A stretch of DNA of 60,187 bases from an uncultured bacterium. GTDB taxonomy: Bacteria; RBG-13-61-14; DATKZS01. The notes beneath the pieces were generated by a model. That model saw only the letters and a program-made list of their open reading frames with translations, had not been told where the DNA came from and made no database searches. Shown piece by piece: positions 15,763 to 52,390 of this stretch. The position numbers and the translations under genes are program-made. Numbering within the stretch: the stretch's first letter is position 1; the number at the start of each line of letters is the position of its first letter. The stretch spans positions 1 through 60,187 of the forward strand of contig CAYQTK010000001.1 of assembly GCA_964420375.1 (NCBI GenBank). The letters are read 5' to 3'.

Positions 15763-15862
15763 AACCGGACTCCCTTGTTTGTCCGTTTCCGGAACTTCGC
15801 AATAAGCGCCCGCCACCCCGGCCCGGAAGGCAAAATGCAGAGGAAAACACCCACCTCATGTA

Positions 15863-34076: not shown

Positions 34077-34177
34077 CCTGTCTCCTCCTTGAAACCCGTT
34101 CGGGTTGTGAGTGTTCGGAATCATTAACTCTTTTTCATGGAGTATAGCCATCTACAGGCGACCGGTCAAATACCTTG

Positions 34178-35605: not shown

Positions 35606-35648
35606 CTTATTATAACCCTGCTGTCCCCTCCGGCGTAATTTATCGTAA

Positions 35649-36788: not shown

Positions 36789-36796
36789 TCCACACC

Positions 36797-37345: not shown

Positions 37346-37570
37346 CCGTTCCTCCGTTGAAAATGATTCGACAATATGGCTGTCATTGATATGCTGCGGC
37401 TCTCTCCCTATCTCAAAACGGGACCGCGACAGCCCTTCACCTCGTACTTTCACCATATCCCGGCATGTGCCGCCAAGTCAAAAACATTATTGTAACCGCG
37501 TCTTGTCTCTATCGTATCTCCTTGCAAACCCCGCTTCTGTGATTAAGGTTAGGTGGAAGGAGGGGAATAA

Positions 37571-38203
37571 ATGAAGAAGCTGCCGTCCGGCATCTACGCC
37601 ATCATCAATCCGGGCTCCCGGCAGGACATGGATGCTATCGCTCTTGCGCGCCGGTCGCTCGACGCGGGGGTGCACGTGCTTCAGCTCCGGGCGAAGAGCC
37701 TGGCTGCGGGCGAGATGTGCGATCTTGCAAAGGACATGGCCCGGCTGTGTCAAAGCTATGACTGCTTGTTCATAGTCAACGACCGGCTGGACGTGGCCCT
37801 GGCTTCCGGCGCCCACGGCGTGCATCTCGGGCAGGACGACCTTCCCCTGGAAGCGGCCCGCAGCATTGTTCCGCCGGGCTTTACGGTGGGGATATCCACC
37901 CACAGCCTGGAGGAAGCAAAAGAAGCCGAAAGCGCGGGAGCGGACTACATCGGGTTCGGGGCCATGTACGAGACCGTGACCAAGGAGGACGTGACTCCTC
38001 CCCGCGGAAAGAGGGGCCTGACCGAGGTTGCCGCAGCAGTTAACATCCCGGTTATAGCCATCGGCGGAATAACGAGAGAACACATCAACGAAATCAAACA
38101 AGCGGACGCGTCCGGTGCAGCGGTAATATCATCAATCATTGCAAGGCCCGATCCCGGCGCTGCCGCCCGCGAACTGGTCAGGGAGTGGGAGAGCAGGCGA
38201 TAG
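37571..38203 (+). CDS. thiE: Thiamine-phosphate synthase
   Basis: IYAIINP...VLQLRAK...FIVNDRLDVALASGAHGVHLGQDD...GISTHS...ADYIGFG...IGGI is the typical ThiE pattern. GGAAGGAGGGG RBS. Confidence 0.92.
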   Translation: MKKLPSGIYAIINPGSRQDMDAIALARRSLDAGVHVLQLRAKSLAAGEMCDLAKDMARLCQSYDCLFIVNDRLDVALASGAHGVHLGQDDLPLEAARSIVPPGFTVGISTHSLEEAKEAESAGADYIGFGAMYETVTKEDVTPPRGKRGLTEVAAAVNIPVIAIGGITREHINEIKQADASGAAVISSIIARPDPGAAARELVREWESRR

Positions 38204-38623: not shown

Positions 38624-39631
38624 TCAGGAGTCCCCCCCAAGGCGGAGCATGGACTTCATGATTTCCGGACTGGCCAGGATGCGGGCGGCTGCCGAGTAGG
38701 GGTCCATTTCACCGTTCTCCACCTGTCGGAAGACCTCGGAGACCTGCTCGTCATGCTCCCCCCGGATCCGTTCTCCAAGCTCGGCAAGGAGAAGCTCGAC
38801 CAGCCACCTCTTCAGGTAGTCCTGCCGGAAAGGCCCGATACGGGGCTTGTGCTTTAAAAACTCTTGGTGCTCCTCGATCTTGTCCGCCAGCTCCTTTACG
38901 CCGATGTTGTTCCTGGCCTGGGCCATGAGCACGGGGACCTCCCAGTTTTCGCCGCGCTCATGCATCTCCAGCATGGAGCGGACCTCGACGGAAAGCCGGT
39001 CCGCGCCGTCGCGGTCGGCCTTGTTGATCACGAAGAGGTCGCCGATCTCCATGAGGCCCGCCTTAAGTGTCTGCACCGTATCGCCGGCTTCGGGGACCAG
39101 CACCACCACGGTGGTGTCGGCAATGCCGATGATGTCAAGTTCGGTCTGACCCACTCCCACGGTCTCGATCATGATCCGATCCATGCCAAAGGCGTCCATC
39201 AAGCAGCCCATCTCCATGGTGGCCCGGGAAAGCCCGCCCTGCGAGCCGCGAGAGCCCAGCGAGCGGATGAAGACCCCCTGGTCCAGGGCGTGCTCCTGCA
39301 TCCTTACCCGGTCGCCGAGTACGGCCCCTCCGCTGAAGGGGCTGGAGGGGTCCACGGCGACCGCGCCCACTGTAAAGCCCCGGCTGCGCCACTCCCGGAT
39401 GAGCTGGTCTATCAGGGTCGACTTGCCCGCCCCCGGCGGACCGGTAATACCGAGACGCGGCACCCCCCTCATCCGGGAAGCCACCTGGGCCATGATCTTG
39501 TAAATCCCCGGCGGCCGGGACTCGATCATGGTCATCAGCCGGGCCAGGGCACGCCGGTCGCCTGCCAGCATCTTCTCCACCAGCTCTTTGCTTTCCGGGT
39601 CGGGTTCGGGGATATCGATTACTTCTTCCAA
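38624..39631 (-). CDS. meaB: MeaB/ArgK-type G3E-family GTPase (methylmalonyl-CoA-mutase-associated metallochaperone family)
   Basis: GITGPPGAGKSTL P-loop, the VETVGVGQ switch, NKAD and the N-terminal GDRRALARLMTMIE motif. TTG start at 39631. Confidence 0.9.
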   Translation of the reverse strand: MEEVIDIPEPDPESKELVEKMLAGDRRALARLMTMIESRPPGIYKIMAQVASRMRGVPRLGITGPPGAGKSTLIDQLIREWRSRGFTVGAVAVDPSSPFSGGAVLGDRVRMQEHALDQGVFIRSLGSRGSQGGLSRATMEMGCLMDAFGMDRIMIETVGVGQTELDIIGIADTTVVVLVPEAGDTVQTLKAGLMEIGDLFVINKADRDGADRLSVEVRSMLEMHERGENWEVPVLMAQARNNIGVKELADKIEEHQEFLKHKPRIGPFRQDYLKRWLVELLLAELGERIRGEHDEQVSEVFRQVENGEMDPYSAAARILASPEIMKSMLRLGGDS

Positions 39632-39782
39632 CTTACCGTCCTTTCCTGTCCCGGGAATAATGAATGTGAATTAACCGGGAAAGACTCTTTCAGGGGAATG
39701 GAATAAAAGCGCCCTTAACAACACGACTACTATATCACGAGGCGCGGATAAGGAAAAAGTCGAGCTTTACTGCAATTTTTTA

Positions 39783-39811
39783 TTGACATCCTTAATTGAT
39801 CCTGGTATAAG
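39783..39811 (+). promoter_or_regulatory. Sigma-70-type promoter of the TetR-headed operon (TTGACA-17 nt-TATAAG)
   Basis: TTGACA at 39783-39788 and TATAAG at 39806-39811. The predicted TSS near 39818 argues for the downstream start codon at 39854. Confidence 0.5.
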
Positions 39812-39824
39812 GAGAGGAGCATGG

Positions 39825-39840
39825 TTAGTCAAGCGACTAA
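39825..39840. promoter_or_regulatory. Perfect 6-4-6 palindrome TTAGTC-AAGC-GACTAA, candidate TetR operator
   Basis: It lies immediately downstream of the -10 element and upstream of the TetR start codon. This is the usual position for an autoregulatory operator. Confidence 0.4.
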
Positions 39841-39853
39841 ATCCGGGGGGAGA

Positions 39854-40513
39854 ATGGAAGGGTCGAACAAGAAAGAAGAGATATTAAAAGCGGCAAAGAA
39901 GCTGTTCGGCGAAGCTGGGTTTGACGCGGCCACCACCAGGGAGATATCCCGGGTGTCCGGCATCAACCAGGGGCTTCTCTATTATTACTTCGGCAACAAA
40001 GAGGCCCTGTTCGAGTCGGTTTTGGACCGTTACTTCGAGGAGCTGGAGGGCGAGCTGTTGGCAACGCTTTCCAGGGAGGGAGAGCTTACCGAGAGGCTCG
40101 CCGGAGTGATCGAGGCTTACATGGACTTTCTTCACCGGAATGAAGGGTTTTCGAAGATCATCCAGCGGGAGGCTGCAGGAGGCATTCACATGGAGGCCAT
40201 CCACAAAAGGCTGTCCCCCATATTCGAGCGGGGGCTTCAGATGATCCGGGAAGCATACCCCGGCGCCCGCAGAGGCGAGATGGCCGCGGACCAGGTGCTT
40301 TTAAGCTTCTACTCCATGATCGCGGGCTACTTCACGTGGAGGCCCATGATGGGAAAGCTCCTTGGCATTGATCCGGAGGAGAAGCCCCGGCTCGAGCTCC
40401 GCAAGCGGCACATGGCGAGGATGCTCGAGCTGGTTGCGGATGCAATCGGCAATGAGCGGACATCATTGTCCCTGAAAGAAGACATCACCCAACAGGAAAG
40501 GAGCGGACCATGA
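39854..40513 (+). CDS. TetR/AcrR-family transcriptional regulator
   Basis: KKEEILKAAKKLFGEAGFDAATTREISRVSGINQGLLYYYFGNKEALF is the TetR_N signature. GGGGGGAGA RBS. The track ORF starts at 39821. Confidence 0.9.
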   Translation: MEGSNKKEEILKAAKKLFGEAGFDAATTREISRVSGINQGLLYYYFGNKEALFESVLDRYFEELEGELLATLSREGELTERLAGVIEAYMDFLHRNEGFSKIIQREAAGGIHMEAIHKRLSPIFERGLQMIREAYPGARRGEMAADQVLLSFYSMIAGYFTWRPMMGKLLGIDPEEKPRLELRKRHMARMLELVADAIGNERTSLSLKEDITQQERSGP

Positions 40514-41547
40514 GAAAGATGAATCCACAGCTTGCCAAGACCCTTGGCCAGGCGGCCATGAAAGCCGTCCAGATCAGGAACAGCGGGGAGGGGAACCCCT
40601 TTCTGATCGGCCATTTCGTGACCAACCGCTGCCACAACAACTGCAAGAGCTGCTTGTGGAAGCACAACGACTGGGAGGACGTGCCGCTCGAAGACCTGAA
40701 GCGCTTTTACAGCGAGGCCGCGCAAGAAGGCTTTCTGGGCACCTTCCTCTCCGGCGGAGAGCCGTTTTTAAGAAAGGACATCGGCGAGCTGGCCCGCCAC
40801 GTAAAGGAGGAGTGCGGCATAGCCATTCTTTTCATCACTTCGGGCTGGTTTCTGGAAGAGAGGCTGGACGAGATCGCGCCTTATGCGGACATGATGATGT
40901 GGTCCATGGATTCCTCGGACCCGCAAAAGCACGATGAGATCAGGGGAACCGCCGGTCTTTTCGACAGGCTCATGAAAGGCGTAAAAAGGGTGAAGGCGGA
41001 GTACCCGGAGATGTCCTGCCAGACCAACGTTTGCGTTCAGAAAGGGATTGAGGACGAGATCGACGATCTTCTCAAGCTGCACGACGACCTGGGCATCCAG
41101 ATATCCTTTGACGTTATCTCCGAGTTCCGTCACGACGGGCAGGGCGGCCACTACACCGAGACCAACATGGCGCTCCCGCTTACCGAGCTTCGGGGGGTCT
41201 GCGAGTACATCCTGGAGAGGAAGAAACATGGCGCGCCGGTGTTGAACTCGGAGCGGTACTTCCAGTACTTCATAGACGGCAAGCCGGGTTACAATTGCCA
41301 TCTTCCCAAGCTGGCCATGTGCGTCGACGGCCGGGGCTACGTGGAGGACTGCCTGGACCTCGAACACCCCATCGCCAACATCCGGGAGACGCCTGTAAAG
41401 GAGATCCTTGCACTGCCCCGCTTAAAGAGCCTGCGGGAGATGGCGGAAGACTGCTGTACCTGTAACTCGCCCACCATGATCGACCTGTCCAACGTGTGGG
41501 AGGACCCGCAAATCCTGTTCGAGGACGGCGGCATCCAGGTGGGATAA
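40510..41547 (+). CDS. Radical SAM protein with Cys-rich (SPASM/twitch-like) C-terminal region
   Basis: NRCHNNCKSCLW (CX3CX2C), SGGEPFLRKD and C-terminal cysteines (CHLPKLAMCVDGRGYVEDC ... CCTCNSP). ATGA overlap with the TetR stop. Confidence 0.85.
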   Translation: MRKMNPQLAKTLGQAAMKAVQIRNSGEGNPFLIGHFVTNRCHNNCKSCLWKHNDWEDVPLEDLKRFYSEAAQEGFLGTFLSGGEPFLRKDIGELARHVKEECGIAILFITSGWFLEERLDEIAPYADMMMWSMDSSDPQKHDEIRGTAGLFDRLMKGVKRVKAEYPEMSCQTNVCVQKGIEDEIDDLLKLHDDLGIQISFDVISEFRHDGQGGHYTETNMALPLTELRGVCEYILERKKHGAPVLNSERYFQYFIDGKPGYNCHLPKLAMCVDGRGYVEDCLDLEHPIANIRETPVKEILALPRLKSLREMAEDCCTCNSPTMIDLSNVWEDPQILFEDGGIQVG

Positions 41548-42587
41548 TGCCCATTTTGAAGAACGCTCTACAGCCGATCATCCACCTGCTCGACCGCTCG
41601 AAAAAGGAGCAGGCGGAGAGACCGACTGCCCTCCAGGAAGGAACGCGCTTTCCGCGCTCTCCATGGGACCTGCGCACGGTGATCATCGTGTTTCCAAAAG
41701 ACAGCGGCTTTCGTTACCTGAACCTCAACACCACCCTGGGACTCACCGGCGTGCCCTTTGACCAGGTGAAAAATATCAGCGGACTCGAGCCGGCCGACTG
41801 CTTCGATCTCCAGTTCTGCCTCCAGGCTGAAGACGGCTATACATCTTATAAAAAGTATCATTCCGTCTGCCGGGACATAAGCTACACACCCGGCAAAGTC
41901 CACCTCGAGCTCGCGGGCAGGCTGTTCTACCAGGGGGAATGGCCCGCCTACTCCATTTTGTTCCATCATCCTGAAGAGGAGCTGTCCGTAAAAATGGAGC
42001 TCGACTCCTGGCAGGGATTCCAGTGGTGGTTTTACGCCCCCGCCCTCTACTGTCACAACACCACCTTTGCCTATGCGCGGCTGGAGGTTGAACAACACGG
42101 AGAACGTATTGCAATGACCACTCCTGCTCTCCACGACCACGGGTGGGGCAGGAACCTCCTTCCCCTGAGACCGGGGGTGGGGGTCTTCCGTTACGAGGTC
42201 ATGCGCTTCGGCGAGTCGGGTCACGCCATATCCTTGTGGTCGGAGGCCCCTTTGGGACTCCGGCTCAAGAACATTGGTCTGGTCCGGCCGGATGAGAAGA
42301 ACCTTTTCTATCCTGCCGGCTATAACTGCGACGTCCTGGAATGGGAAGAACACCAAAACTACGCGGGCTGCACTGTCCGCGTGCCCGCAAAGTGGCGCGG
42401 CTTTCAGGAGGGCAAGGCGCTTTCTTTTACTTATGAAGCTCTGCGCAGCACCGAGCCCCTGCCCCTGCTCGGCGAGGGCCTGATTTACGGGTTCGATTAC
42501 CAGGGAAGATTAACCGGCGCCATGGATAAACGGATCAAGGGCCGCGGCTACGTTGAGCAGCTCGGGTTATCAGGTCGCGGAAAGTAA
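41547..42587 (+). CDS. Hypothetical 346-aa protein of unknown function
   Basis: Start ATG 41547 overlaps the radical SAM stop (TAATG). It is Trp/aromatic-rich and looks like a soluble beta-type protein. I recognised no motif. The track ORF starts at 41496. Confidence 0.6.
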   Translation: MPILKNALQPIIHLLDRSKKEQAERPTALQEGTRFPRSPWDLRTVIIVFPKDSGFRYLNLNTTLGLTGVPFDQVKNISGLEPADCFDLQFCLQAEDGYTSYKKYHSVCRDISYTPGKVHLELAGRLFYQGEWPAYSILFHHPEEELSVKMELDSWQGFQWWFYAPALYCHNTTFAYARLEVEQHGERIAMTTPALHDHGWGRNLLPLRPGVGVFRYEVMRFGESGHAISLWSEAPLGLRLKNIGLVRPDEKNLFYPAGYNCDVLEWEEHQNYAGCTVRVPAKWRGFQEGKALSFTYEALRSTEPLPLLGEGLIYGFDYQGRLTGAMDKRIKGRGYVEQLGLSGRGK

Positions 42588-42699
42588 TAGAAAAAGCACG
42601 AGAGAAGATGAGGCCTGTTTTGTTAAAGCAACATAGAGCCAAGATTATTGCCGCTCGCACCTTGTATGACCGCACTCTATACATTGAAAGGAGAGTACC

Positions 42700-44844
42700 T
42701 TGAACGAGCGCAATCCGCGGATTCTCGCCATAGACGCGGGCGGGACCATGACCGACACCTTTATAGTGGACACTGCCGGCGACTTCGTTGTGGGCAAGGC
42801 GCGGTCCACGCCTGAAGACGAGTCGCTGGGGCTCGTCCGCAGTGCAGAGGACGCGCTTTCGCACTGGGGCATGAAAACGGGAGAGGCTTTTCCTTTGATG
42901 GTGGCGGGCATCTACTCGGGCACGGTCATGTTGAACCGCCTGCTTTCAAGAAACGGTCTCAGGCTGGGTGTGATCGTGAGCAAGGGACAAGAGGACTACT
43001 TCCTGCTCGAGCGCGGTGTGCAGACTTACCTGGGCTTTTCCTACTCCGACCGGCTGCACGTGGCCACTCACTATCATAACCGGCCCATAGTTCCCAAAAG
43101 CCGCGTGAGAGGGGTGTTCGGCAGGATCGACATCTTCGGCGAAGAGGTCCTGCCTCTACAGGAGGAAGACGTGGGGGGCGTGGTTGCCGAGCTTCTCGAC
43201 CAAGACATCGAGGGCCTTTGCGTTTGCCTGCTTAACTCCTATCGAAACCCCGTCCACGAGCAGGAGGTCGGCAGAATAGCCGCAGAGTTGATGCAGGAGA
43301 TCGGCAAGCATGTGCCCCTGTTCTTGTCGTCCGAGTACTATCCCCTGCGCAACGACCTGCCCCGCCTCAATACCACGGTGATCGAAGCTTATGCTGCCGA
43401 GCCTTCGCGGGGGCAGCTTAAAAAGGTCTCGGAAAGGATCAGGGACAGGGGCGGAAATTTCGACGTCCGGGTCATGGCCGCCCATGGCGGGATGATTGGT
43501 GCGGAGACCCGCGAGCTGGCCCGCACTCTCATATCCGGGCCTATCGGCGGAGTAGTGGGTGCGAAGTACCTTGCCCGGCATATGGGCCATGACAACGTCG
43601 TCTGCACCGATGTGGGCGGGACCAGCTTCGACCTCGCCCTGGTCACCGAGGGAGCCTGCACGGTCAAGGCATACCCGGACATGGCCAGGTTCCTGCTTTC
43701 CATACCCATGATCAAGATAGACTCGATGGGAGCGGGCACCGGAAGCTACGTGCGCGTAAACCCGAACTCGGCAAGGATCGAGATCGGGCCCGACTCCGCG
43801 GGAGCGAGTATAGGAGTGTGTTGGCCGGACGGAGGAGTGGAAACCGCCACCATCACCGACTGCTCGGTTGTGCTCGGCGTCATAAACCCCGATTACTTCC
43901 TGGGCGGAGAGATGCGGCTTGATCGGGACCGGGCTATAAAGGCCGTCCGGGAACAGGTGGCAAAGCCGCTTAACATCGGTGTTTATGAAGCGGCATCCGG
44001 AGTGGTCGAGCTGTTGGAGGAGAACCTCAAAGGCGACGTCCTGAGCACGGTGCTCGGCAAAGGGTACTCGCCCGCCAACTACGTGCTTTTGTCCTACGGC
44101 GGCGGAGGACCGGTGCACGTGGCCGGCTATACGCGGGGCCTTGGATTTGCAGACGTAATCGTGCCGGCATGGGCCGCGGGCTTTTCCGCGTTCGGTTGCG
44201 CCTGCGCCGACTTCGAGTACCGTTACGAGGCCACCACCGACATCCCCATTGCAGCGGGGCTTCCGCCCGAGTGGAAAAGCGCCATGACAGGCGTGCTGAA
44301 AAAGACGTGCGAAAAGCTGAAAACCAGGATAGAAGAGGAGTTCCATAAGACCGAGCACGGTGGCAAAACCATAACCTACAAGACCTACTTCCGCATCCAG
44401 TACATGGGACAGCTCGACGATCTCGAGATACTCTGTCCCCCAGAAAAGCTGGAGACAGCCGAAGACCTGGACGCATTGCTCGAGGCGTTCGAGGACACCT
44501 ATGGCCGGGTATACGCGCTCGCAGCCAAGTCTCCGGAACTCGGGTACGCAGTGACCCAGGCAGTTGTAACCGGCATGGTCGAGATTGAAAAGCCGGTCAT
44601 ACCGGAAGAGCCCGAAGGGGGAAAAGAGCCTGACCATGCTGCCTGGAAAGAAGAGCGGCCGGTCTTCTGGAGCAAGGAGTGGATAAAGACGGGAGTGTGG
44701 GACATGCCGGGCCTTCGAAACGGGAACGTCATCTCCGGGCCCGCAATCATCGAGTCGCCGGCAACCACATTTGCCGTACCGCCGGATGCGCAGGCACGCC
44801 TTGACGCGCACCGGCTGTTTCACCTTGAAAAGAAGAGGGATTAA
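42700..44844 (+). CDS. Hydantoinase A/oxoprolinase-family protein, acetone (ketone) carboxylase beta-subunit-like
   Basis: ILAIDAGGTMTDTFIVD ATPase N-terminus and DVGGTSFD. 714 aa. TTG start with AAAGGAGAG RBS. Confidence 0.85.
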   Translation: MNERNPRILAIDAGGTMTDTFIVDTAGDFVVGKARSTPEDESLGLVRSAEDALSHWGMKTGEAFPLMVAGIYSGTVMLNRLLSRNGLRLGVIVSKGQEDYFLLERGVQTYLGFSYSDRLHVATHYHNRPIVPKSRVRGVFGRIDIFGEEVLPLQEEDVGGVVAELLDQDIEGLCVCLLNSYRNPVHEQEVGRIAAELMQEIGKHVPLFLSSEYYPLRNDLPRLNTTVIEAYAAEPSRGQLKKVSERIRDRGGNFDVRVMAAHGGMIGAETRELARTLISGPIGGVVGAKYLARHMGHDNVVCTDVGGTSFDLALVTEGACTVKAYPDMARFLLSIPMIKIDSMGAGTGSYVRVNPNSARIEIGPDSAGASIGVCWPDGGVETATITDCSVVLGVINPDYFLGGEMRLDRDRAIKAVREQVAKPLNIGVYEAASGVVELLEENLKGDVLSTVLGKGYSPANYVLLSYGGGGPVHVAGYTRGLGFADVIVPAWAAGFSAFGCACADFEYRYEATTDIPIAAGLPPEWKSAMTGVLKKTCEKLKTRIEEEFHKTEHGGKTITYKTYFRIQYMGQLDDLEILCPPEKLETAEDLDALLEAFEDTYGRVYALAAKSPELGYAVTQAVVTGMVEIEKPVIPEEPEGGKEPDHAAWKEERPVFWSKEWIKTGVWDMPGLRNGNVISGPAIIESPATTFAVPPDAQARLDAHRLFHLEKKRD

Positions 44845-44855
44845 AGGAGAGAGAC

Positions 44856-47087
44856 ATGACAAGCCATTCGCGAAAAAGTCCCTTCTCAAAAGGACCGGTG
44901 GGATGGGAGGGACGGACGCTCATGGAGATGCTGGAGCGTTCCGAGAAGCTGTGGAGCGAGACCGGCCGCTACCAGGGGCTTGACAAGCTGGAGCTAAAAG
45001 AAGCCGATCCCATCCGTTACGAAAAGATATTCGCCAAGCTCCGGGGAGGCCTGGTCAACGCCCGCGAGACGGCAATGAACATCAGCGCGTCTCCCATAGT
45101 AAAGGAGATAGGCGAGCTGTGCTTCGCCTTTTACACCCCCGAGGGCGACAGCGTAGCGCTTTCCACCGGTATAATCGTTCACGTCCATACCATGAGCGAC
45201 GCCATCAAGTTCATGATAAGAAAGGGGTACGAGGACAACCCCGGCATAGCGGGCGGAGACATCTTTTCAAACAACGACCCGGTAATCGGGGACGTGCATA
45301 ACGCTGACGTGCAGACCCTTGTGCCCATATTCCGGGAAGGCGAGCTTCTGGGCTGGGCCGGAGGAGTGACCCACGTGATCGACATCGGGGCGTCAACCCC
45401 CGGGAGCGTGCCGGTAGGACCGACCTCCCGGTACGAAGACGGACTGGCACTGACCGCGCTCAAGGTGGGGGAGAAAGACACTCTGTTCCGGCACCACGAA
45501 ATAATGTGCGAGATGAGAGTGAGAACGCCCAAGTACTGGAAGCTGGATGAAAGGACCCGCATAGCCGGCTGCCACATGATCCGCGACGCAGTGGAGAGGA
45601 TAGTGCGCGAGGAAGGCATTGACGCGTTCAAGAGCTTCATGCGCGAGGTCATCGAGGAAGGCCGCCAGAGCTTTGTAAGCCGGATTAAAGAGCTTACCAT
45701 ACCCGGCAGCTATGACGCGACCACCTTTAACGCGGTGACCTTCAAGGACGAGCCGGGCCTGCCTCCGCGGGCGCGGACCGACTCGTTGATGCACGCGCCT
45801 CTCCGGGTGGACATCGGCGGATCGGGCGAGTTCGAGCTGTCCATGGACGGCGCAAGCCCGTGGGGATATCACAGCTTCAACTGCACGCCCAGCGCCATGC
45901 AGGGCGCCTTGTGGGTGCTCTTGAGCCAGACCGTGGTGCCCAACGACAAGGTCAACGACGGCGCTTACCTGGCAACCAGGAGCTTTTTCCCGCCCGGGTC
46001 GTGGTCCAATCCCCAGAACCCCGAGGTCAGCACGGGCGCGGCCTGGGGATTTCTTATCCCTTCGTTCACCGGACTTTTCCGGATGCTCGGCCGGGCATTT
46101 TACGCCCGGGGGTTCCACGAAGAGGTCATGGCTTCATACGGCATGACCATGAACGCACTGCAGGGCGGGGGCACGGACCACATGGGCAAGCCGTGCAGCA
46201 TCCTGAACTTCGAGATCAGCACCGTGGGCGGCGGAGCGGGTGCAGTCAAGGACGGGCTCGATTTTGCGGCAGCGATGTGGAACCCGGAAGGCGACATGGC
46301 AGACGTGGAGATATGGGAGATTCTCGAGCCGCTTCTCTACCTGGGCCGCAGGGTCAAGCCGAACACCGCGGGACCGGGCAGGTTCCGGGGAGGATCGGGG
46401 TTCGAGTCGCTGCGCATGGTGTGGAAGACAAACGATCTGGTCCTGCAGAACGCCGGGGAGGGCAACACCTTTTCCGCTCCCGGCATCTTCGGAGGATACC
46501 CTGCAGCCGCGGGCTATCGCCACAACGTGCACCAGGCCGACCTGTTGGAGAACGCCCGCGCGGGCAGGCCCTACCCGGTGCGCGAGCGGGACCCGGGCGA
46601 CTCGGACATCTCCCGGATGGTGGAAGGCGGACACGAGATGGACAAGAGGGCAATGACGTATCCCATGCCTTACGAGCAGGGAGACCTCTACCTGTCGTGG
46701 CTCCGGGGAGGAGGCGGCCTGGGAGACCCGCTGGAACGCGAGCCCTCCCGGGCGGCGGATGATGTAAACCAGGGGTTCCTGCTTCCGGACTATGCAGCCA
46801 AGGTCTACGGTGTAAAGATCGAGCAGGGACCGGCTGGCGATTACGCTGCGGACGAGGACGAAACCCGGAAACTGAGGCGGGAGATAAAGAGTAAGCGCGC
46901 CGAGCGGAGCATGCCCGTCCGGGACTTTTACGAGAGGGAGAAACAGCGCGTTATTAAAGGCGGGTTTAGAAAGCCGGTCCGGGAATGCTATAACTCGTGC
47001 ATGGCTCTGTCGGTGGAGTGGGGGAACAAGTTCCGGGAGTTCTGGGGCCTGCCGCCTGACTTTTCATTTTCACAAGGAGAGGACTGA
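44856..47087 (+). CDS. Hydantoinase B/oxoprolinase-family protein, acetone (ketone) carboxylase alpha-subunit-like
   Basis: 743 aa, hydantoinase_B-type sequence (DPIRYEKIFAKL...; GGGLGDPLER near the C-terminus). AAAGGAGAGAG RBS. Confidence 0.85.
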   Translation: MTSHSRKSPFSKGPVGWEGRTLMEMLERSEKLWSETGRYQGLDKLELKEADPIRYEKIFAKLRGGLVNARETAMNISASPIVKEIGELCFAFYTPEGDSVALSTGIIVHVHTMSDAIKFMIRKGYEDNPGIAGGDIFSNNDPVIGDVHNADVQTLVPIFREGELLGWAGGVTHVIDIGASTPGSVPVGPTSRYEDGLALTALKVGEKDTLFRHHEIMCEMRVRTPKYWKLDERTRIAGCHMIRDAVERIVREEGIDAFKSFMREVIEEGRQSFVSRIKELTIPGSYDATTFNAVTFKDEPGLPPRARTDSLMHAPLRVDIGGSGEFELSMDGASPWGYHSFNCTPSAMQGALWVLLSQTVVPNDKVNDGAYLATRSFFPPGSWSNPQNPEVSTGAAWGFLIPSFTGLFRMLGRAFYARGFHEEVMASYGMTMNALQGGGTDHMGKPCSILNFEISTVGGGAGAVKDGLDFAAAMWNPEGDMADVEIWEILEPLLYLGRRVKPNTAGPGRFRGGSGFESLRMVWKTNDLVLQNAGEGNTFSAPGIFGGYPAAAGYRHNVHQADLLENARAGRPYPVRERDPGDSDISRMVEGGHEMDKRAMTYPMPYEQGDLYLSWLRGGGGLGDPLEREPSRAADDVNQGFLLPDYAAKVYGVKIEQGPAGDYAADEDETRKLRREIKSKRAERSMPVRDFYEREKQRVIKGGFRKPVRECYNSCMALSVEWGNKFREFWGLPPDFSFSQGED

Positions 47088-47575
47088 TGCAGGTATATGA
47101 CGACAAGACCCTGGCCGACCTTTGGGAGGGGAATCTGGACCACGAAAAGCTCCGGCAGATACAGGCGCGTTTCAAAGACCGCGACAGGTTCGAGCGTTTC
47201 GTGGCTTATTGCCGGGAGCGCATAAGCTGGGACGACCGGATACTGCTGCCCCTCCAGCCGCATCTTTTTATAGTCGAGCGAGCTGACGGCATGCGGATCA
47301 TCAAGTGCGACTGCGGCCGGGAGTTCGGCGACCATCGCGAAAACTGGAAGTTCGAGGCCCGGATTTTCGTTCGCGACAGCGACGAGCTGATGCAGGAGGT
47401 CTATCCCCCGCTCATGCACTGCAACCCGGAGTGGATGGAACTCCGCGAGTACTACTGCCCGGGCTGCTATGCTCTTCTCGAGGTCGAGATGGTTCCCCCC
47501 GGCTATCCCATAATCCACGACTTCCGGCCGGACCTGGAAAGCTTCTACAGAGACTGGCTGGGAAAGGAGCTTTAG
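47087..47575 (+). CDS. Acetone carboxylase gamma-subunit-like zinc protein
   Basis: 162 aa. By my recollection of the Xanthobacter AcxC sequence it is collinear throughout: WDD.ILLPL.P.LFIV, CDCG, NWK..ARI.VRD, REYYCPGC and PVIHDF.PD...FY..WLG. TGATG overlap with the upstream gene. Confidence 0.85.
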   Translation: MQVYDDKTLADLWEGNLDHEKLRQIQARFKDRDRFERFVAYCRERISWDDRILLPLQPHLFIVERADGMRIIKCDCGREFGDHRENWKFEARIFVRDSDELMQEVYPPLMHCNPEWMELREYYCPGCYALLEVEMVPPGYPIIHDFRPDLESFYRDWLGKEL

Positions 47576-47579
47576 GGCG

Positions 47580-50117
47580 GTGGCTGTATTTAAAGACCGC
47601 GGCGAACTCGAGAAAGTTATGTCCGCCATGTTCGACCGGATCAAGCAGGACGAGTTCATGGTGAAAGAGCTTGTGGCCGCAAACCTGAAGCTGCGCTTCC
47701 GCTATAGCGATCCTGACACGGTCATGACCGTTGACCTTACTTGTGACCCCCCGGAGTACGGCTTCGACGAGCAGGGTGAGGCTGACGTGGAGATGTTCCA
47801 GTCTGCGGACACCGGCCACCGGTTCTGGCTGGGCAGGCTCAGCGTGGTCCGGGCCATGGCCACCGGCAAGATATCTGCGCGCGGCAATCCGGCCAAGGCC
47901 ATGAAGCTACTGCCCGCGATCAAGCCCGCGTTCGAGATGTATCCCCAGGTGTTGAAAGACCTGGGCATGGAGCATCTCATCCCGGAAGCCGATTCCGGGA
48001 CCCGGAAAAGAAAGCGGGGATCGCGGTGGAGAAGTATTTTAAAAAGACAGCGGCAGGCAGACAAGTCCCTGCTTCAGAAGGACACATGGGCAACGGTATC
48101 GTCTCCGTTGGAAGACAAGACGTTTCGGTGCCGGGATTACTCCTTGCCGGAGGATGAGGACGCGCTCCGTATCGAGCTTATGAACCGGATGTTGCTGGTC
48201 CGCGAGTTCGAACAGATGCTTTTCGAAAAGTGGAAAAGGGGAGTTGTTCCCACTACCGCCATACACCTTTCCACGGGGCAGGAAGCGGTTGCCGTGGGGA
48301 TATGCTCCGCACTGCTTGCCGACGACTGCATCGCCACCACCCACCGGGGCCACGGCCACATGATCGCCAAGGGCGCGGACGTTAACCGGATGATGGCCGA
48401 GATATTCGGCAAGGCTGATGGGCTTTGCAAGGGCAAGGGCGGGACCATGCACGTGACCGACCGGGAGGCCGGCGCGCTGGGGGCCAACGGTATTGTGGGG
48501 GCCTCCGCCCTGTTGGGAACGGGGGCTGCACTGGCTTTCAAGCTCAAGGCAGAAGACCGGGCGGCAGTGGCGTTCTTCGGTGACGGCGCAGCCAACCAGG
48601 GCATGGTGCACGAGGCCATGAACATGGCTGCCATATGGGACCTGCCCGTCCTGTTCGTGGTCGAGAACAACGGCTATGGAGAGTTCACGCCCCAGAAACG
48701 GCACATGAAGATAGAAAAGATATCCGAGCGCGCCCGGGGTTATGGGATAACCTCTCTCACCATTGACGGAAACGACGTTGAGCTGGTCCATGAAACCGCC
48801 CGGGCGCTTATGGAAGACATAAGAAACGGCGGCGGCCCGGCGCTCCTCGAGTGCGTGACCTACCGCTGGCACGGCCACATGCTGGGCGACAACGAACAGT
48901 ACCGCACGCGCGAAGAGGTCGAGACCTGGATGGAGAAGTGTCCCATAAAACGCCAGCGGGACAAGCTCGTCGGTGAAGGCAAACTGTCCCCGGAGGCTGA
49001 AGAGTCTCTCCTGGCGAGGGCGCGGGAGGTCGTGCTGGACGCGATGAGCTTTGCCCACGAGTCCCCCGAACCCGATGCCCGAGAACTGGCCACTGACGTG
49101 TACGTTTTCGAGCCTTTACCGCCTGAGCCGCAAGCGCCGGCTGAGGTCTCGCTCCTGACCGGGTCAGCGGCCATCAACCTGGCGCTGGCAGAGGAGATGC
49201 GCCGAGACCCGGCAGTGGTGCTGCTGGGCGAAGACGTGGGCCTGGGCGGTTACATGGCGGTGACCAACGGGCTTTTAGAGGAGTTCGGTGAAAAGCGCGT
49301 CCTGGACACTCCCATCAGCGAGTACGCCATAGTAGGCGCTTCAGTGGGAGCGGCCATGTCCGGCCTGCGGCCGGTGGCCGAGCTGTTGTTCAGCGACTTT
49401 ATCACCTGCGCCATGGACCCCATTGTGAACCAGGCAGCCAAGCTTAGATACATGTCCGGCGGACAGTACCGCGTTCCCCTGGTGGTAAGGCTTCCCGGAG
49501 GCGCGGGCCTGGCCCTGGCGGCGCAACACTCCCAGAGCCTCGAATCCATGCTCATGGGGGTCCCCGGACTTATCATCGCAGCGCCGAGCTCCCCCCGCGA
49601 CTGCCGGGCCATGCTGAAGACAGCCATCCGAAGCGATAACCCCGTTCTTTTTTTCGAGCACAAGCTCCTCTACCTGGCACAGGGGGAGGTCCCCCACGAG
49701 GAAGAGCTCCTGCCGTTCGGCAAAGCAAAAGTGGTGAGAAGCGGCCGGGACATTACCATCGTGTCCCTGCTCTATACGGTGGACCTGGCGCTGGAGGCCG
49801 CGGAAACATTGGCGAAGGAGGGGGTTGACGCCGAGGTTATAGACCTTCGCTGCCTGTCGCCTCTGGATACGGACACTGTATTGGAATCGGTCGCCGGGAC
49901 CGGCAGGCTCGTCACCGTGGAAGAGGGGCCTGCCCGCGGGGGATGGGGCGCGGAGATAGTGGCCCGGACGGCAACCTGCGCCCACGGCTTGTTGAAGGCC
50001 CCTCCCGTCAGGATCGGAGGAACCGACAATCCCCTGCCTTATAACAAGCTCATGGAGATGCTGTCCGTGCCCGGGGTCAAAGACGTGCTCGAGAGGATAG
50101 CCGGGATTATGGGCTGA
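47580..50117 (+). CDS. Triple fusion: SCP2 sterol-carrier-like domain + TPP-dependent 2-oxoacid/acetoin dehydrogenase E1 alpha + E1 beta
   Basis: N-terminus LRFRYSDP...GKISARGNPAKAMKLLPAIKP (SCP2). E1 alpha GDGAANQG...ENNGY TPP motif. E1 beta VVLLGEDVG...DTPISEYAIVGASVGAAMSGLRPV and a transketolase-C-like end. GTG start 4 nt after the gamma-subunit stop. Confidence 0.85.
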   Translation: MAVFKDRGELEKVMSAMFDRIKQDEFMVKELVAANLKLRFRYSDPDTVMTVDLTCDPPEYGFDEQGEADVEMFQSADTGHRFWLGRLSVVRAMATGKISARGNPAKAMKLLPAIKPAFEMYPQVLKDLGMEHLIPEADSGTRKRKRGSRWRSILKRQRQADKSLLQKDTWATVSSPLEDKTFRCRDYSLPEDEDALRIELMNRMLLVREFEQMLFEKWKRGVVPTTAIHLSTGQEAVAVGICSALLADDCIATTHRGHGHMIAKGADVNRMMAEIFGKADGLCKGKGGTMHVTDREAGALGANGIVGASALLGTGAALAFKLKAEDRAAVAFFGDGAANQGMVHEAMNMAAIWDLPVLFVVENNGYGEFTPQKRHMKIEKISERARGYGITSLTIDGNDVELVHETARALMEDIRNGGGPALLECVTYRWHGHMLGDNEQYRTREEVETWMEKCPIKRQRDKLVGEGKLSPEAEESLLARAREVVLDAMSFAHESPEPDARELATDVYVFEPLPPEPQAPAEVSLLTGSAAINLALAEEMRRDPAVVLLGEDVGLGGYMAVTNGLLEEFGEKRVLDTPISEYAIVGASVGAAMSGLRPVAELLFSDFITCAMDPIVNQAAKLRYMSGGQYRVPLVVRLPGGAGLALAAQHSQSLESMLMGVPGLIIAAPSSPRDCRAMLKTAIRSDNPVLFFEHKLLYLAQGEVPHEEELLPFGKAKVVRSGRDITIVSLLYTVDLALEAAETLAKEGVDAEVIDLRCLSPLDTDTVLESVAGTGRLVTVEEGPARGGWGAEIVARTATCAHGLLKAPPVRIGGTDNPLPYNKLMEMLSVPGVKDVLERIAGIMG

Positions 50118-50166: not shown

Positions 50167-50340
50167 TTGTCAAGATTAAAATGACGCATACCGTGCGAGC
50201 CACTTTATTCGCGACTGAAGTCGCTCGCACTAAATTCATTCTTCTTGGAGGCAACAAAGAACGCTTGACAGCTTATGTTTTGTCAAATGCTTTTTGGGAA
50301 TAGAAGAGAAGCGTGCGAGCGGCTGATACCGCGATTTTCG
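50167..50340 (+). repeat. REP/REPIN-like family A: one full element (50167-50271) plus a second partial tandem element (50279-50340)
   Basis: TTGTCAAG...TGACGCATACCGTGCGAGCCACT...GCGACTGAAGTCGCTCGCAC...CGCTTGACAG, then TTGTCAAA...GCGTGCGAGCGGCTGATACCGCGA. Collinear with 32263-32367. Confidence 0.8.
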
Positions 50341-50446
50341 TTTGCCCTGTTCCCTTTTTTCGAGTGACAGAGCACTAGCGGATCAATCCTGCATTCGGCA
50401 TCGCCTGGACAAGGAAGAAAAAAGAAAGTTGCAGGCTGTATCCGGG

Positions 50447-52387: not shown

Positions 52388-52390
52388 ACC

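What the first reader, a model, noticed from the sequence alone, without database searches (positions are those of the whole stretch)
39783..50117. TetR-headed, translationally coupled seven-gene operon joining an AcxABC-type ketone carboxylase to a radical SAM enzyme, an unknown protein and an orphan fused E1
Seen: seven same-strand genes with almost no spacing. There is an ATGA overlap at 40510-40513, a TAATG overlap at 41545-41549, a 112-nt gap, an 11-nt gap, a TGATG overlap at 47085-47089 and a 4-nt gap. The 714-, 743- and 162-aa products match the beta (hydantoinase A), alpha (hydantoinase B) and gamma (Cys pairs CDCG / CPGC) subunits of ATP-dependent acetone/ketone carboxylases in order, size and motifs. 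Established knowledge: characterised acxABC loci are controlled by a sigma-54 activator, and their acetoacetate product is CoA-activated and thiolysed. E1 components normally deliver to a lipoyl-E2. In this window none of CoA transferase/ligase, thiolase, E2 or E3 accompanies the carboxylase. Instead the operon carries a TetR repressor, a radical SAM enzyme, a 346-aa protein I cannot assign, and a fused SCP2-E1alpha-E1beta. Inference: this may be an undescribed catabolic module for a hydrophobic or hydroxy-ketone that combines ATP-dependent carboxylation with TPP-dependent C-C chemistry. As far as I recall, acetone activation in the sulfate reducer Desulfococcus biacutus was linked to a TPP enzyme and a B12 mutase system rather than Acx. 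That makes the co-occurrence of Acx-like, TPP and MeaB-like genes here worth testing.
Basis: partly seen in the sequence, partly recalled or inferred. Interest (0 to 1): 0.78.

Follow-up and report, generated by a model that had tools for sequence, protein, structure and literature searches.

The report
Acetone carboxylase spliced into unknown cassette
A genuine acetone-carboxylase gene set sits inside a conserved but uncharacterised four-gene cassette (TetR regulator, radical SAM enzyme, hydratase-like barrel protein, lipid-carrier-fused thiamine enzyme), which suggests an unknown anaerobic route that makes or uses a ketone such as acetone.

Summary
The three carboxylase genes are true acetone-carboxylase-type AcxB/A/C. 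Their best solved relatives are the Xanthobacter and Aromatoleum enzymes (E 1e-254, 4e-212, 4e-48), and the Mn and Zn ligands are conserved. New here: the 346-aa unknown protein has an AttH/CrtC/kievitone-hydratase/25-phosphosteroid-lyase fold, and the N-terminus of the 845-aa protein is a real SCP2 fold. The operon is also composite. Across 21 lineages of the unknown protein, the radical SAM gene lies directly upstream in 18 of 20 evaluable cases. TetR-rSAM-unknown-(SCP2)E1 persists down to 38% identity. AcxBAC is inserted between the unknown gene and the SCP2-E1 gene in only three lineages. No E2 or E3 accompanies this E1 in any locus examined. Its closest annotated relatives are acetoin-dehydrogenase-type E1s, which are known to release acetone from methylacetoin. 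My best reading is that the cassette processes a hydrophobic substrate and yields or uses a ketone, and that Acx captures that ketone. This functional link is inferred, not shown. The proposed Desulfococcus biacutus connection is not supported. Interest is moderate to high: a new variant of a known kind, wrapped around an unknown module.

The parts
39783..39811 (+). Promoter-like hexamers TTGACA-17 nt-TATAAG. Doubtful, because the -10 box overlaps the TetR ribosome-binding site AAGGAG.
   Evidence: Read from the sequence. The consensus scan did not call it.
39821..40513 (+). TetR-family regulator, 230 aa.
   Evidence: TetR_N E 1.4e-17. Homologous TetR genes head the cassette in L014, L020, L022, L023 and L024.
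40510..41547 (+). Radical SAM enzyme, 345 aa, with a CX3CX2C motif and a Cys-rich C-terminus (partial SPASM/twitch-like). It belongs to no characterised subfamily.
   Evidence: Radical_SAM E 1.5e-17; SPASM 19.2 bits, below the 21.5 cut-off. Best NCBIfam hit is far below its cut-off. Best PDB hits reach only 1e-8: viperin, BlsE, MoaA. It lies directly upstream of the unknown gene in 18 of 20 evaluable lineages.
41547..42587 (+). 346-aa protein of a small family absent from Pfam, with an AttH/CrtC/kievitone-hydratase/25-phosphosteroid-lyase double-barrel fold. Invariant motifs are LHDHGWG, FRYE and GY.E.
   Evidence: No Pfam or NCBIfam hit. 85 homologues, all hypothetical. AlphaFold pLDDT 90.5. 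Foldseek hits 2ich E 2e-11, 7a0t, 9fzn/9g4c and CghA/Fsa2/Phm7. Only 20 cluster representatives at E<=1e-30 among 1.84 billion.
42588..42699 (+). 112-nt intergenic seam between the old cassette and the Acx insert. No terminator and no significant structure.
   Evidence: fold z-score -0.9. In L013/L108 a GxxExxY/PDDEXK_3 gene sits at this same seam.
42700..44844 (+). AcxB-type beta subunit (hydantoinase A, nucleotide-binding), 714 aa, TTG start.
   Evidence: Pfam. PDB 5m45_B and 5svb_B E 1e-254, against acetophenone carboxylase at 2e-108.
44856..47087 (+). AcxA-type alpha subunit (hydantoinase B, Mn site), 743 aa.
   Evidence: PDB 5m45_A and 5svb_A E 4e-212, against 7.5e-45 for acetophenone carboxylase. 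His, Asp and His align with H150, D153 and H175 of 5m45_A.
47087..47575 (+). AcxC-type gamma subunit, 162 aa, with Cys pairs CDCG and CPGC.
   Evidence: Acetone_carb_G E 2.6e-43. PDB 5svb_C E 4e-48, with the Cys pairs aligned.
47580..47969 (+). SCP2 lipid-binding domain (residues 1-130 of the 845-aa protein), followed by a disordered basic linker at 47970-48164.
   Evidence: The domain is a separate 143-aa gene in L108 (28% identity, E 5e-18).
48165..50117 (+). Single-chain E1 alpha-beta thiamine-diphosphate enzyme with a GDG-X26-NN motif, of the PDH/acetoin-dehydrogenase E1 type, with no E2/E3 partner.
   Evidence: E1_dh 3.5e-78, Transket_pyr 3.7e-45, Transketolase_C 2.9e-33. PDB E1 alpha and beta hits. 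Closest annotated relatives sit in operons with an acetoin-dehydrogenase E2. No E2 in the window, nor in the six loci where called genes carry Pfam annotation: L006, L007, L008, L025, L026 and L027.
50193..50230 (+). Hairpin followed by an A/T-rich tract; the likely end of the transcription unit.
   Evidence: -21 kcal/mol, z-score -2.2.
38624..39631 (-). Divergently transcribed MeaB-type GTPase. It is a neighbour and is not shown to belong to the system.
   Evidence: No mutase gene in the window. MeaB does not recur next to the cassette in other loci.

Best explanation
The locus is one TetR-headed transcription unit built from two layers. The old layer is a conserved, uncharacterised cassette with four parts: a TetR regulator; a radical SAM enzyme; a 346-aa AttH/CrtC-fold protein (a fold used by hydratases and lyases acting on isoprenoid-type tertiary carbinols and alkenes); and a single-chain SCP2-E1alpha-beta thiamine-diphosphate enzyme of the acetoin-dehydrogenase E1 type that works without E2 or E3. 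The young layer is a genuine ATP- and Mn-dependent acetone/ketone carboxylase (AcxB, AcxA, AcxC). It is inserted between the AttH-like gene and the SCP2-E1 gene and is translationally coupled to the latter.

Shown: the gene content, the folds, the conservation pattern and the insertion.

Inferred: the cassette processes a hydrophobic substrate held by the SCP2 domain. The AttH-like protein and the radical SAM enzyme prepare a tertiary alpha-hydroxy-ketone. The E1 cleaves it by TPP chemistry and releases acetone or another small ketone, as AcoAB does with methylacetoin. In the lineages that acquired it, Acx then carboxylates that ketone to a beta-keto acid for assimilation. TetR would de-repress the whole unit when the hydrophobic substrate is present.
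For: Structure and identity: genes and junctions; Acx identity and metal ligands; AttH/CrtC/25-PSL fold; SCP2.

Composite nature. Of 21 lineages of the unknown protein, rSAM is directly upstream in 18 of 20 evaluable cases, TetR is upstream in 6, and E1f is directly downstream in 6. Acx lies between them in only 3: the window, L007/L012 and L013/L108. The most divergent members (38-42% identity; L020, L023, L024) still keep TetR-rSAM-unknown-E1f. The window's E1f is closest (75%) to L006, where the unknown gene abuts E1f without Acx. The AcxA proteins of the module form a tight 72-78% subclade. The Acx-to-SCP2/E1 junction is tight (4-nt overlap to 8-nt gap) in all three lineages, whereas the upstream seam is loose and hosts a GxxExxY gene in L108.

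Chemistry link. The nearest annotated E1 relatives sit in acetoin-dehydrogenase operons. AcoAB cleaves methylacetoin to acetone plus TPP-bound acetaldehyde and, without E2/E3, condenses acetone with active acetaldehyde (PMC3744081).

Other ketone-related neighbours of the rSAM-unknown pair: an acetoacetate-decarboxylase-family gene (L008); an ALS-type TDP enzyme with a formyl-CoA-transferase-like gene, SCP2 and enoyl-CoA hydratase (L005); a pair of HGD-D subunits (L001); and a thiolase (L007). ALS-type TDP enzymes and HGD-D subunits are acetone-induced in sulfate reducers.

Transcription unit: no terminator or structure in the 112-nt gap, and a hairpin after E1f.
Against: No experiment and no characterised homologue exists for the rSAM, the unknown protein or the SCP2-E1 fusion, so the substrate and the direction of the E1 reaction are guesses. 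Twelve of 21 lineages have rSAM-unknown with no E1f in the available flank, and full-length E1f also occurs without rSAM or the unknown gene, for example L030 next to lipid A/BamA genes and L027. The parts are therefore not obligatorily linked. Neighbourhoods outside the core are heterogeneous, and the 'ketone theme' was assembled post hoc from a few loci. The acetoacetate-decarboxylase hit is below its NCBIfam cut-off. A radical-SAM step that produces an alpha-hydroxy-ketone has no close precedent. No gene that activates acetoacetate is present in the window. An internal promoter in the 112-nt gap cannot be excluded.
Confidence: 0.45

Rival explanations
1. Co-location without a shared pathway. 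The Acx cassette landed at a permissive intergenic seam of an unrelated TetR-controlled cassette. It simply carboxylates free acetone or butanone from the environment, and the rSAM/unknown/SCP2-E1 genes do something else, for example membrane-lipid or cofactor modification.
For: Acx is absent from 18 of 21 cassette lineages. The upstream seam is loose and carries a mobile-type GxxExxY/PDDEXK_3 gene in L108/L013. A member of the same AcxA subclade (P0212) is followed by an ABC transporter rather than E1. E1f occurs beside lipid A/BamA genes and a START-like lipid-binding protein in L030, and beside LPG-synthase and methyltransferase genes in L026.
Against: The same insertion point is kept in three lineages whose proteins are only 51-78% identical. 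The AcxC-to-SCP2/E1 junction is translationally coupled in all of them. A stand-alone SCP2 also follows acxC in an unrelated Acx locus, L109, which argues that SCP2 and Acx work together.
Confidence: 0.25
2. A carboxylase for long-chain or isoprenoid methyl ketones. SCP2 delivers a water-insoluble methyl ketone (2-alkanone, or an isoprenoid ketone) to an Acx with a widened substrate range. The rSAM, the AttH-like protein and E1 act before or after it on the same lipid.
For: SCP2 sits immediately after acxC in three settings: fused to E1 in the window and L007, free in L108, and free without any E1 in L109. The SCP2 fold matches lipid-binding SCP2 domains and alkylsulfatase domains. The module AcxA proteins form a separate subclade. 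A thiolase lies next to the cluster in L007 and L109. From my own knowledge: carboxylation of hexadecan-2-one and of 6,10,14-trimethylpentadecan-2-one has been proposed for anaerobic enrichments and for a denitrifier.
Against: Mn ligands and overall sequence are typical of acetone carboxylases (about 47-55% identity to characterised or annotated ones), and no pocket analysis was possible. TPP chemistry has no obvious role on a beta-keto acid. SCP2 is fused to E1, not to Acx.
Confidence: 0.2
3. The radical SAM enzyme is a protein maturase of the 346-aa protein (as anSME is for sulfatases) rather than a small-molecule enzyme. The real catalysts are then the modified AttH-like protein and the E1.
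For: There is near-obligate, translationally coupled pairing of rSAM with the unknown gene (18 of 20). The rSAM has a partial SPASM/twitch C-terminus and weak hits to maturase families. The unknown protein has a nearly invariant Cys91.
Against: There is no recognisable maturase target motif, no RRE domain and no precursor peptide gene. The family is equally distant from small-molecule rSAMs: viperin, BlsE, MoaA, HpnH.
Confidence: 0.15
4. One reading: a Desulfococcus biacutus-like TPP/B12 route of acetone activation co-operating with Acx.
For: MeaB is encoded divergently upstream. A TPP enzyme is in the operon.
Against: The sulfate-reducer pathway uses an acetolactate-synthase-type TDP enzyme, a two-subunit B12 mutase and a dehydrogenase. 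None of these is in the window. MeaB does not recur next to the cassette elsewhere.
Confidence: 0.03

Closest known systems
Acetone carboxylase AcxABC of Xanthobacter autotrophicus Py2 and Aromatoleum aromaticum (PDB 5svb, 5svc, 5m45)
   Same: It has three subunits in beta-alpha-gamma gene order and is by far the best structural-database match. The alpha-subunit His/Asp/His Mn ligands and the gamma-subunit Cys pairs are conserved.
   Different: There is no adjacent sigma-54 activator, which is present in the canonical loci L110 and L111. The genes are embedded in a TetR-headed operon and translationally coupled to an SCP2-E1 gene. They belong to a separate 72-78% subclade from uncultured Thermodesulfobacteriota and Abyssubacteria. 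Sulfate reducers are said not to be able to afford this ATP-expensive reaction (PMC7888143). Whether the host of this window reduces sulfate is unknown.
Acetoin/methylacetoin dehydrogenase E1 (AcoAB) and other heterotetrameric 2-oxoacid dehydrogenase E1s
   Same: It has the E1_dh, Transket_pyr and Transketolase_C domains and a GDG-X26-NN TPP motif. It is 50% identical to an E1 pair that precedes an annotated acetoin-dehydrogenase E2. AcoAB links E1 chemistry to acetone.
   Different: Alpha and beta are fused into one chain, with an N-terminal SCP2 domain and a basic disordered linker. No E2 or E3 is in the window or in six annotated related loci, whereas E2 follows directly in the cultured-organism relatives.
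AttH (NE1406), carotenoid 1,2-hydratase CrtC, kievitone hydratase and 25-phosphosteroid lyase fold family
   Same: The predicted fold matches: Foldseek probability 1.0, E 2e-11 to 6e-8, TM about 0.55-0.65. All characterised members act on hydrophobic, mostly isoprenoid, tertiary alcohol or alkene groups.
   Different: Sequence identity is only 9-14%. There is no Pfam hit for the protein or for its remote relatives. It is paired with a radical SAM enzyme, which is not known for any characterised member. Catalytic residues could not be compared.
TDP/B12-dependent acetone pathway of Desulfococcus biacutus, Desulfosarcina cetonica and Desulfotomaculum spp.
   Same: It is anaerobic ketone metabolism in sulfate-reducer-related bacteria involving a TPP enzyme and a MeaB-type GTPase. 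One relative locus (L005) has an ALS-type TDP enzyme next to the rSAM-unknown pair.
   Different: The TPP enzyme belongs to a different superfamily branch (ALS type versus E1 type). There is no B12 mutase and no dehydrogenase here. Those organisms lack Acx.

Membership tests
Acetone carboxylase (AcxABC) | Three subunits: hydantoinase A-type beta, hydantoinase B-type alpha, and a small gamma with PF08882. | tested here: met
   The gene order beta-alpha-gamma is the same as in L110 and L111.
Acetone carboxylase (AcxABC) | Closer to characterised acetone carboxylases than to acetophenone carboxylase, hydantoinase, oxoprolinase or caprolactamase. | tested here: met
   850, 709 and 167 bits to 5m45/5svb, against 367, 156 and 41 bits to 5l9w, and less to 6yra and 7hk5.
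Acetone carboxylase (AcxABC) | Mn-binding His/Asp/His of the alpha subunit and Zn-binding Cys pairs of the gamma subunit. | tested here: met
   Alignment columns H150, D153 and H175 of 5m45_A are conserved (that these residues are the Mn ligands is from my own knowledge). CDCG and CPGC align with CECG and CPEC of 5svb_C.
Acetone carboxylase (AcxABC) | Adjacent sigma-54-dependent activator (AcxR) and sigma-54 promoter. | tested here: not met
   There is no such gene next to the operon. The only sigma-54 regulator in the window is 27 kb away. No promoter-like site lies in the intergenic regions.
Acetone carboxylase (AcxABC) | ATP- and bicarbonate-dependent carboxylation of acetone to acetoacetate. 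| not testable with these tools
   Needs an enzyme assay.
2-oxoacid/acetoin dehydrogenase complex E1 | E1_dh, Transket_pyr and Transketolase_C domains with a GDG...NN TPP motif. | tested here: met
2-oxoacid/acetoin dehydrogenase complex E1 | Works with a lipoyl-E2 and an E3 encoded alongside. | tested here: not met
   No Biotin_lipoyl, 2-oxoacid_dh or E3 gene in the window or in L006, L007, L008, L025, L026 and L027. E2 is present in the cultured relatives. An E2 elsewhere in the genome cannot be excluded.
SCP2 sterol/lipid carrier domain | SCP2 alpha/beta fold with a hydrophobic tunnel. | tested here: met
   Model pLDDT is above 90 for residues 1-130. The top 40 or more Foldseek hits are all SCP2 domains, TM (target) 0.72-0.79.
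SCP2 sterol/lipid carrier domain | Match to Pfam PF02036. | tested here: inconclusive
   The window's own domain gives no hit at E<=0.01, but 17 of 19 aligned homologous N-termini do (best 4.8e-8).
Radical SAM / SPASM | CX3CX2C cluster motif and Radical_SAM core. | tested here: met
   The motif CHNNCKSC is at residues 41-48. PF04055 E 1.5e-17.
Radical SAM / SPASM | Full SPASM auxiliary-cluster domain, or membership of a named equivalog. | tested here: not met
   SPASM scores 19.2 bits, below the 21.5 cut-off. The best NCBIfam hit (PTO1314 family) scores 93 bits against a cut-off of 306.
AttH/CrtC/kievitone hydratase/25-PSL fold family | Double beta-barrel (lipocalin-like) fold. | tested here: met
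   on a model with pLDDT 90.5.
AttH/CrtC/kievitone hydratase/25-PSL fold family | Sequence-family membership (Pfam CrtC/Lipocalin_9) and shared catalytic residues. | tested here: not met
   No Pfam hit for the protein or for ten remote relatives. Catalytic residues were not compared because no residue-level structural alignment was available.
TDP/B12 acetone pathway of sulfate reducers | ALS-type TDP enzyme plus two-subunit B12 mutase plus 3-hydroxybutyryl-CoA dehydrogenase in one cluster. | tested here: not met
   None of the three is in the window. Only MeaB is present.

The most novel reading that the evidence does not exclude
The TetR-rSAM-AttH-like-SCP2/E1 cassette encodes a previously unknown, oxygen-independent way of cutting a dimethyl-carbinol or isopropylidene terminus off a lipid, such as an isoprenoid. 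The steps would be hydration or dehydration by the AttH-like protein, radical SAM oxidation, then E2-independent TPP-dependent acyloin cleavage by an E1 that holds its lipid substrate or acceptor through a fused SCP2 domain. The product is acetone, and some Thermodesulfobacteriota salvage it with an ATP-dependent acetone carboxylase. That enzyme is thought to be unaffordable for sulfate-reducer-type anaerobes.
Probability: 0.2. Interest if true: 0.85.

Novelty: new variant of a known kind. Interest (0 to 1): 0.6.

Why it matters
Three points would matter if this holds up.

- Acetone carboxylase has so far been described as a stand-alone, sigma-54-controlled three-gene unit of aerobes, denitrifiers and phototrophs. 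Here it is an accessory of another pathway in uncultured Thermodesulfobacteriota-type anaerobes. This bears on the published argument that such organisms cannot afford the enzyme.
- The host cassette joins three protein families with no characterised member: a radical SAM enzyme, a family absent from Pfam with a hydratase/lyase fold, and an abundant roughly 850-aa SCP2-E1 fusion that lacks E2/E3. The Acx insertion is the first functional clue to what they do, namely ketone chemistry.
- An E1 that works without a lipoyl-E2 and carries its own lipid-binding domain would be a new way of using 2-oxoacid-dehydrogenase machinery.

Tried and rejected
1. Acx-like kinase plus lyase, by analogy to 25-hydroxysteroid kinase and 25-phosphosteroid lyase. 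Rejected. The full text of the 25-hydroxysteroid kinase paper contains no mention of hydantoinase, acetone carboxylase or acetophenone carboxylase, so nothing ties that kinase to the Acx family, and no lyase gene lies near it (PMC8449060). The rSAM-unknown pair also mostly occurs without Acx.

2. Desulfococcus biacutus-type pathway. Rejected on gene content.

3. RiPP maturation system. No precursor-sized gene fits between the overlapping genes, there is no RRE domain, and SPASM is sub-threshold.

4. The metagenome scan with the E1 fusion returned mostly generic fused or unfused E1 genes. Only L028-L030 were full-length, and they have no rSAM, unknown or Acx homologue nearby.

5. The plasmid collection has no homologue of the unknown protein.

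6. Rfam found nothing in the window, including no TPP riboswitch near thiE.

7. All-versus-all clustering of flanking ORFs found no further family shared by independent lineages beyond the core.

8. TetR operator. Relatives have a TTAAC-N10-GTTAA palindrome upstream of TetR. The window has only TTAACCGG half-sites, and their significance is weak.

9. Literature searches linking acetone carboxylase with radical SAM, or SCP2 with E1 and radical SAM, found nothing relevant. Several searches failed for technical reasons.

Full report
**1. Observation**

| Gene | Coordinates |
|---|---|
| TetR | 39821-40513 |
| Radical SAM | 40510-41547 |
| Unknown, 346 aa | 41547-42587 |
| AcxB | 42700-44844 |
| AcxA | 44856-47087 |
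| AcxC | 47087-47575 |
| E1 fusion, 845 aa | 47580-50117 |

- The junctions are an ATGA overlap, a TAATG overlap, a 112-nt gap, an 11-nt gap, a TGATG overlap and a 4-nt gap.
- Pfam and NCBIfam confirm TetR_N, Radical_SAM (SPASM below threshold), Hydant_A_N/Hydantoinase_A/Hydant_A_C, Hydantoinase_B, Acetone_carb_G, and E1_dh + Transket_pyr + Transketolase_C. They give nothing for the 346-aa protein.
- The 112-nt gap has no terminator-like site and no significant fold.
- A -21 kcal/mol hairpin (z-score -2.2) followed by an A/T-rich tract lies 75 nt after the last stop codon.
This -10 box overlaps the TetR ribosome-binding site, so I treat that promoter as unproven.
- Pfam scans of 50 of the window's ORFs, including all but one (15319-15870 +) of the 150-aa-or-longer ORFs in the non-overlapping set, found no CoA transferase or ligase, thiolase, E2, E3 or B12 mutase.

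**2. The carboxylase genes**

- The best solved relatives are the acetone carboxylases of Aromatoleum aromaticum and Xanthobacter autotrophicus: beta E 1e-254, alpha E 4e-212, gamma E 4e-48.
- Acetophenone carboxylase, hydantoinase, oxoprolinase and N-methylhydantoinase score far lower.
- The residues aligned with His150, Asp153 and His175 of 5m45_A are conserved. That these are the Mn ligands is from my own knowledge. The gamma Cys pairs also align.
- Two canonical annotated loci, on plasmids of Cupriavidus pinatubonensis and Rhodovulum sp. P5 (45-47% identity), consist of a sigma-54 regulator plus acxBAC and nothing else.
- The window has no adjacent sigma-54 regulator and no sigma-54 promoter-like site in the relevant intergenic regions.

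**3.

The 346-aa protein:
- It has 85 homologues, all hypothetical.
- An AlphaFold model built from a 36-sequence alignment is confident: pLDDT 90.5, pTM 0.91.
- Its best PDB matches are AttH NE1406 (E 2e-11), kievitone hydratase, 25-phosphosteroid lyase and the fungal decalin-forming Diels-Alderases. This is the CrtC/AttH double-barrel fold, whose characterised members act on hydrophobic alkene or tertiary-alcohol groups.
- By sequence the family is isolated. A profile search of 1.84 billion cluster representatives finds only 20 at E<=1e-30 and 149 at E<=1e-3. Ten of the remote ones have no Pfam domain either.

The N-terminus of the 845-aa protein:
- The window's own sequence gives no Pfam hit, but 17 of 19 homologous N-termini hit SCP2.
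- The model of residues 1-130 (pLDDT above 90) matches only SCP2 domains.
- Residues 135-195 form a disordered, basic linker.
- The catalytic part carries a GDG-X26-NN TPP motif.

**4. Conservation: the key result**

I collected loci through homologues of the unknown protein, of the E1 fusion and of AcxA. I scored them with tblastn. After dereplication at 90% identity there are 21 lineages of the unknown protein.

| Feature | Lineages |
|---|---|
| rSAM gene directly upstream | 18 of 20 evaluable |
| Homologous TetR heading the unit | 6 |
| SCP2-E1 fusion directly downstream (9-78 nt) | 6 |
| AcxB-AcxA-AcxC between the unknown gene and the (SCP2)E1 gene | 3: the window, L007/L012, L013/L108 |

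- The most divergent unknown-protein homologues (38-42% identity; L020, L023, L024) still show TetR-rSAM-unknown-E1f. This four-gene cassette is therefore old and under selection.
- The window's E1 fusion is most similar (75%) to that of L006, where the unknown gene abuts E1f without Acx.
- The module-embedded AcxA proteins form a discrete 72-78% subclade, after which identities drop to 67% or less.
- The upstream seam is loose: 112 nt here, 64 nt in L007, and a GxxExxY/PDDEXK_3 gene in L013/L108.
- The AcxC-to-SCP2/E1 junction is always tight.
- In L108 the SCP2 domain is a separate 143-aa gene between acxC and E1alpha.
- In L109, a more distant Acx locus (65% AcxA identity), a free SCP2 gene follows acxC with no E1, rSAM or unknown gene, and a thiolase lies convergent.
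- All 16 loci from the species-representative genome collection are metagenome-assembled genomes, mostly labelled Thermodesulfobacteriota, 'Deltaproteobacteria' or Myxococcales. No cultured organism carries the cassette.

**5. The E1 is orphan everywhere I could look**

- No lipoyl-E2 or E3 gene occurs in the window or in the six related loci whose genes carry Pfam annotation.
- The closest annotated relatives of the catalytic part are different. One is an E1alpha + E1beta pair followed by an 'acetoin dehydrogenase' E2 in Pseudoroseomonas (50% identity). Another is a fused E1 followed by an E2 in Fuscovulum.
- The SCP2-E1 architecture itself is abundant. Thousands of fused E1 homologues pass E<1e-50, and the top 120 are all about 840-890 aa. 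Sources name them only 'SCP2 sterol-binding domain-containing protein' or generic E1.
- It also occurs with a different radical SAM gene (29-30% identity; L025, L026), or with no rSAM or unknown gene, for example L030 beside a START-like lipid-binding gene and lipid A/BamA genes.

**6. Mechanism**

Shown: the window holds a composite operon of a genuine Acx and a conserved cassette of three uncharacterised enzymes plus TetR.

Inferred:
- E1 enzymes of the acetoin type cleave methylacetoin into acetone and TPP-bound acetaldehyde. Without E2/E3 they condense acetone with active acetaldehyde (PMC3744081). A direct chemical link therefore exists between an E1 and the substrate of Acx.
- The AttH/CrtC fold family makes or removes dimethyl-carbinol groups on lipids.
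- SCP2 implies a hydrophobic ligand.
- I therefore favour the following pathway. The cassette converts a hydrophobic compound to a tertiary acyloin. The E1 splits this and releases acetone or another small ketone, and the inserted Acx captures it.
- Weak additional support comes from other ketone-related neighbours of the rSAM-unknown pair: an acetoacetate-decarboxylase-family gene (L008); an ALS-type TDP enzyme with a formyl-CoA-transferase-like gene, SCP2 and enoyl-CoA hydratase (L005); a pair of HGD-D subunits (L001); and a thiolase (L007). ALS-type TDP enzymes and HGD-D subunits are acetone-induced in sulfate reducers (PMC7888143).
- These associations were noticed post hoc, and the wider neighbourhoods are heterogeneous.

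Rivals:
- Co-location only.
- A long-chain methyl-ketone carboxylase served by SCP2.
- The rSAM as a maturase of the 346-aa protein.

All remain open. The Desulfococcus biacutus-type route is excluded by gene content.

**7. Comparison and novelty**

- The Acx genes are a new member of a known family in a new regulatory and operonic setting.
- The surrounding cassette has no described counterpart. Literature searches linking Acx with radical SAM, or SCP2 with E1 and radical SAM, found nothing relevant.
- Sulfate reducers are stated to be unable to afford ATP-dependent acetone carboxylation. A close relative locus (L006) carries dsrC and dsrMK-like genes, but the physiology of this window's organism is unknown.
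- I rate the finding as a new variant of a known kind, with about a 20% chance that it marks a categorically new lipid-terminus cleavage pathway.

**8. Verdict**

- Observation: confirmed.
- Interpretation: partly supported. The conserved, Acx-type and non-canonical control claims hold. 'One integrated seven-gene module' should be replaced by 'Acx inserted into an older cassette'. The D. biacutus analogy is dropped.
- Interest: 0.6.

Noticed in passing
window 39671-39678, 42510-42529, 48382-48389; L014, L020 and L022 upstream of TetR: Relatives carry a palindrome of the type TTAAC(C/T)GGGCGCC..GTTAA between the promoter-like TTGACA and the TetR start; it is a perfect 20-mer in L022. The window lacks the full palindrome. 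Its only three exact TTAACCGG copies all lie in the operon region. One (TTAACCGGCGCCATGGATAA) sits at the 3' end of the unknown gene, about 170 nt upstream of acxB, and could be an internal operator. Statistically this is weak.
   Followed up: partly
window 37571-38203 (+): A thiamine-phosphate synthase (ThiE, TMP-TENI E 2e-61) lies between an HTH-cupin regulator and the lone MeaB, next to an operon encoding a TPP enzyme. No TPP riboswitch was found by Rfam.
   Followed up: partly
window 38624-39631 (-): A MeaB-type GTPase scores above its equivalog cut-off, but no B12 mutase gene is anywhere in the 60-kb window. It is an orphan chaperone of unknown client.
   Followed up: partly
window 33384-37456 (-): A minus-strand block holds an HTH-cupin regulator, an acyl-CoA dehydrogenase (best match acryloyl-CoA reductase AcrC, below cut-off), a B12-binding radical SAM enzyme (475 aa), and one protein (33384-34151) without a Pfam domain; a second Pfam-less ORF (32715-33299) lies just upstream of the block. 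Its function is unknown. A B12-rSAM also lies near the cassette in L025.
   Followed up: no
L108 3080-3475 and L013 2739-3134: A GxxExxY/PDDEXK_3 gene occupies exactly the seam where the window has its 112-nt gap. These loci also carry two tandem paralogues of the radical SAM gene.
   Followed up: partly
L109 12829-13233: A stand-alone SCP2 gene directly follows acxC in an Acx locus that has no E1, rSAM or unknown gene, with a convergent thiolase. This suggests an Acx-SCP2 partnership independent of the cassette.
   Followed up: partly
L008 12577-13881 and L010 13645-15075: A conserved protein of 434-476 aa without any Pfam or NCBIfam hit follows the SCP2-E1 gene in two independent loci. In L008 it is followed by two FadL/Toluene_X outer-membrane channels and lies near an MMPL/RND transporter.
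   Followed up: no
L007 1073-2380 and L012 (same gene): An amine-oxidase/phytoene-desaturase-like flavoprotein and a DUF333 gene lie just upstream of the radical SAM gene in the second Acx-containing lineage, in place of TetR.
   Followed up: no
window 21194-24055 (-): A 953-aa protein consists almost entirely of ankyrin repeats (Ank_2 E 3e-141), which is unusual for a bacterium.
   Followed up: no
window 24884-26530 (+), 50342-53503 (+): Two DUF4388 proteins lie in the window: one carries its own TPR repeats (24884-26530) and the other (52391-53503) follows a separate TPR protein (50342-52387). The second pair begins 225 nt after the operon, downstream of the hairpin.
   Followed up: no
window 4-1410 (+), 2994-7716 (-): The left end of the window holds an FGE-sulfatase protein with MopE-type metal-binding repeats, a TPR Ser/Thr kinase (823 aa) and a 587-aa pentapeptide-repeat protein.
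   Followed up: no
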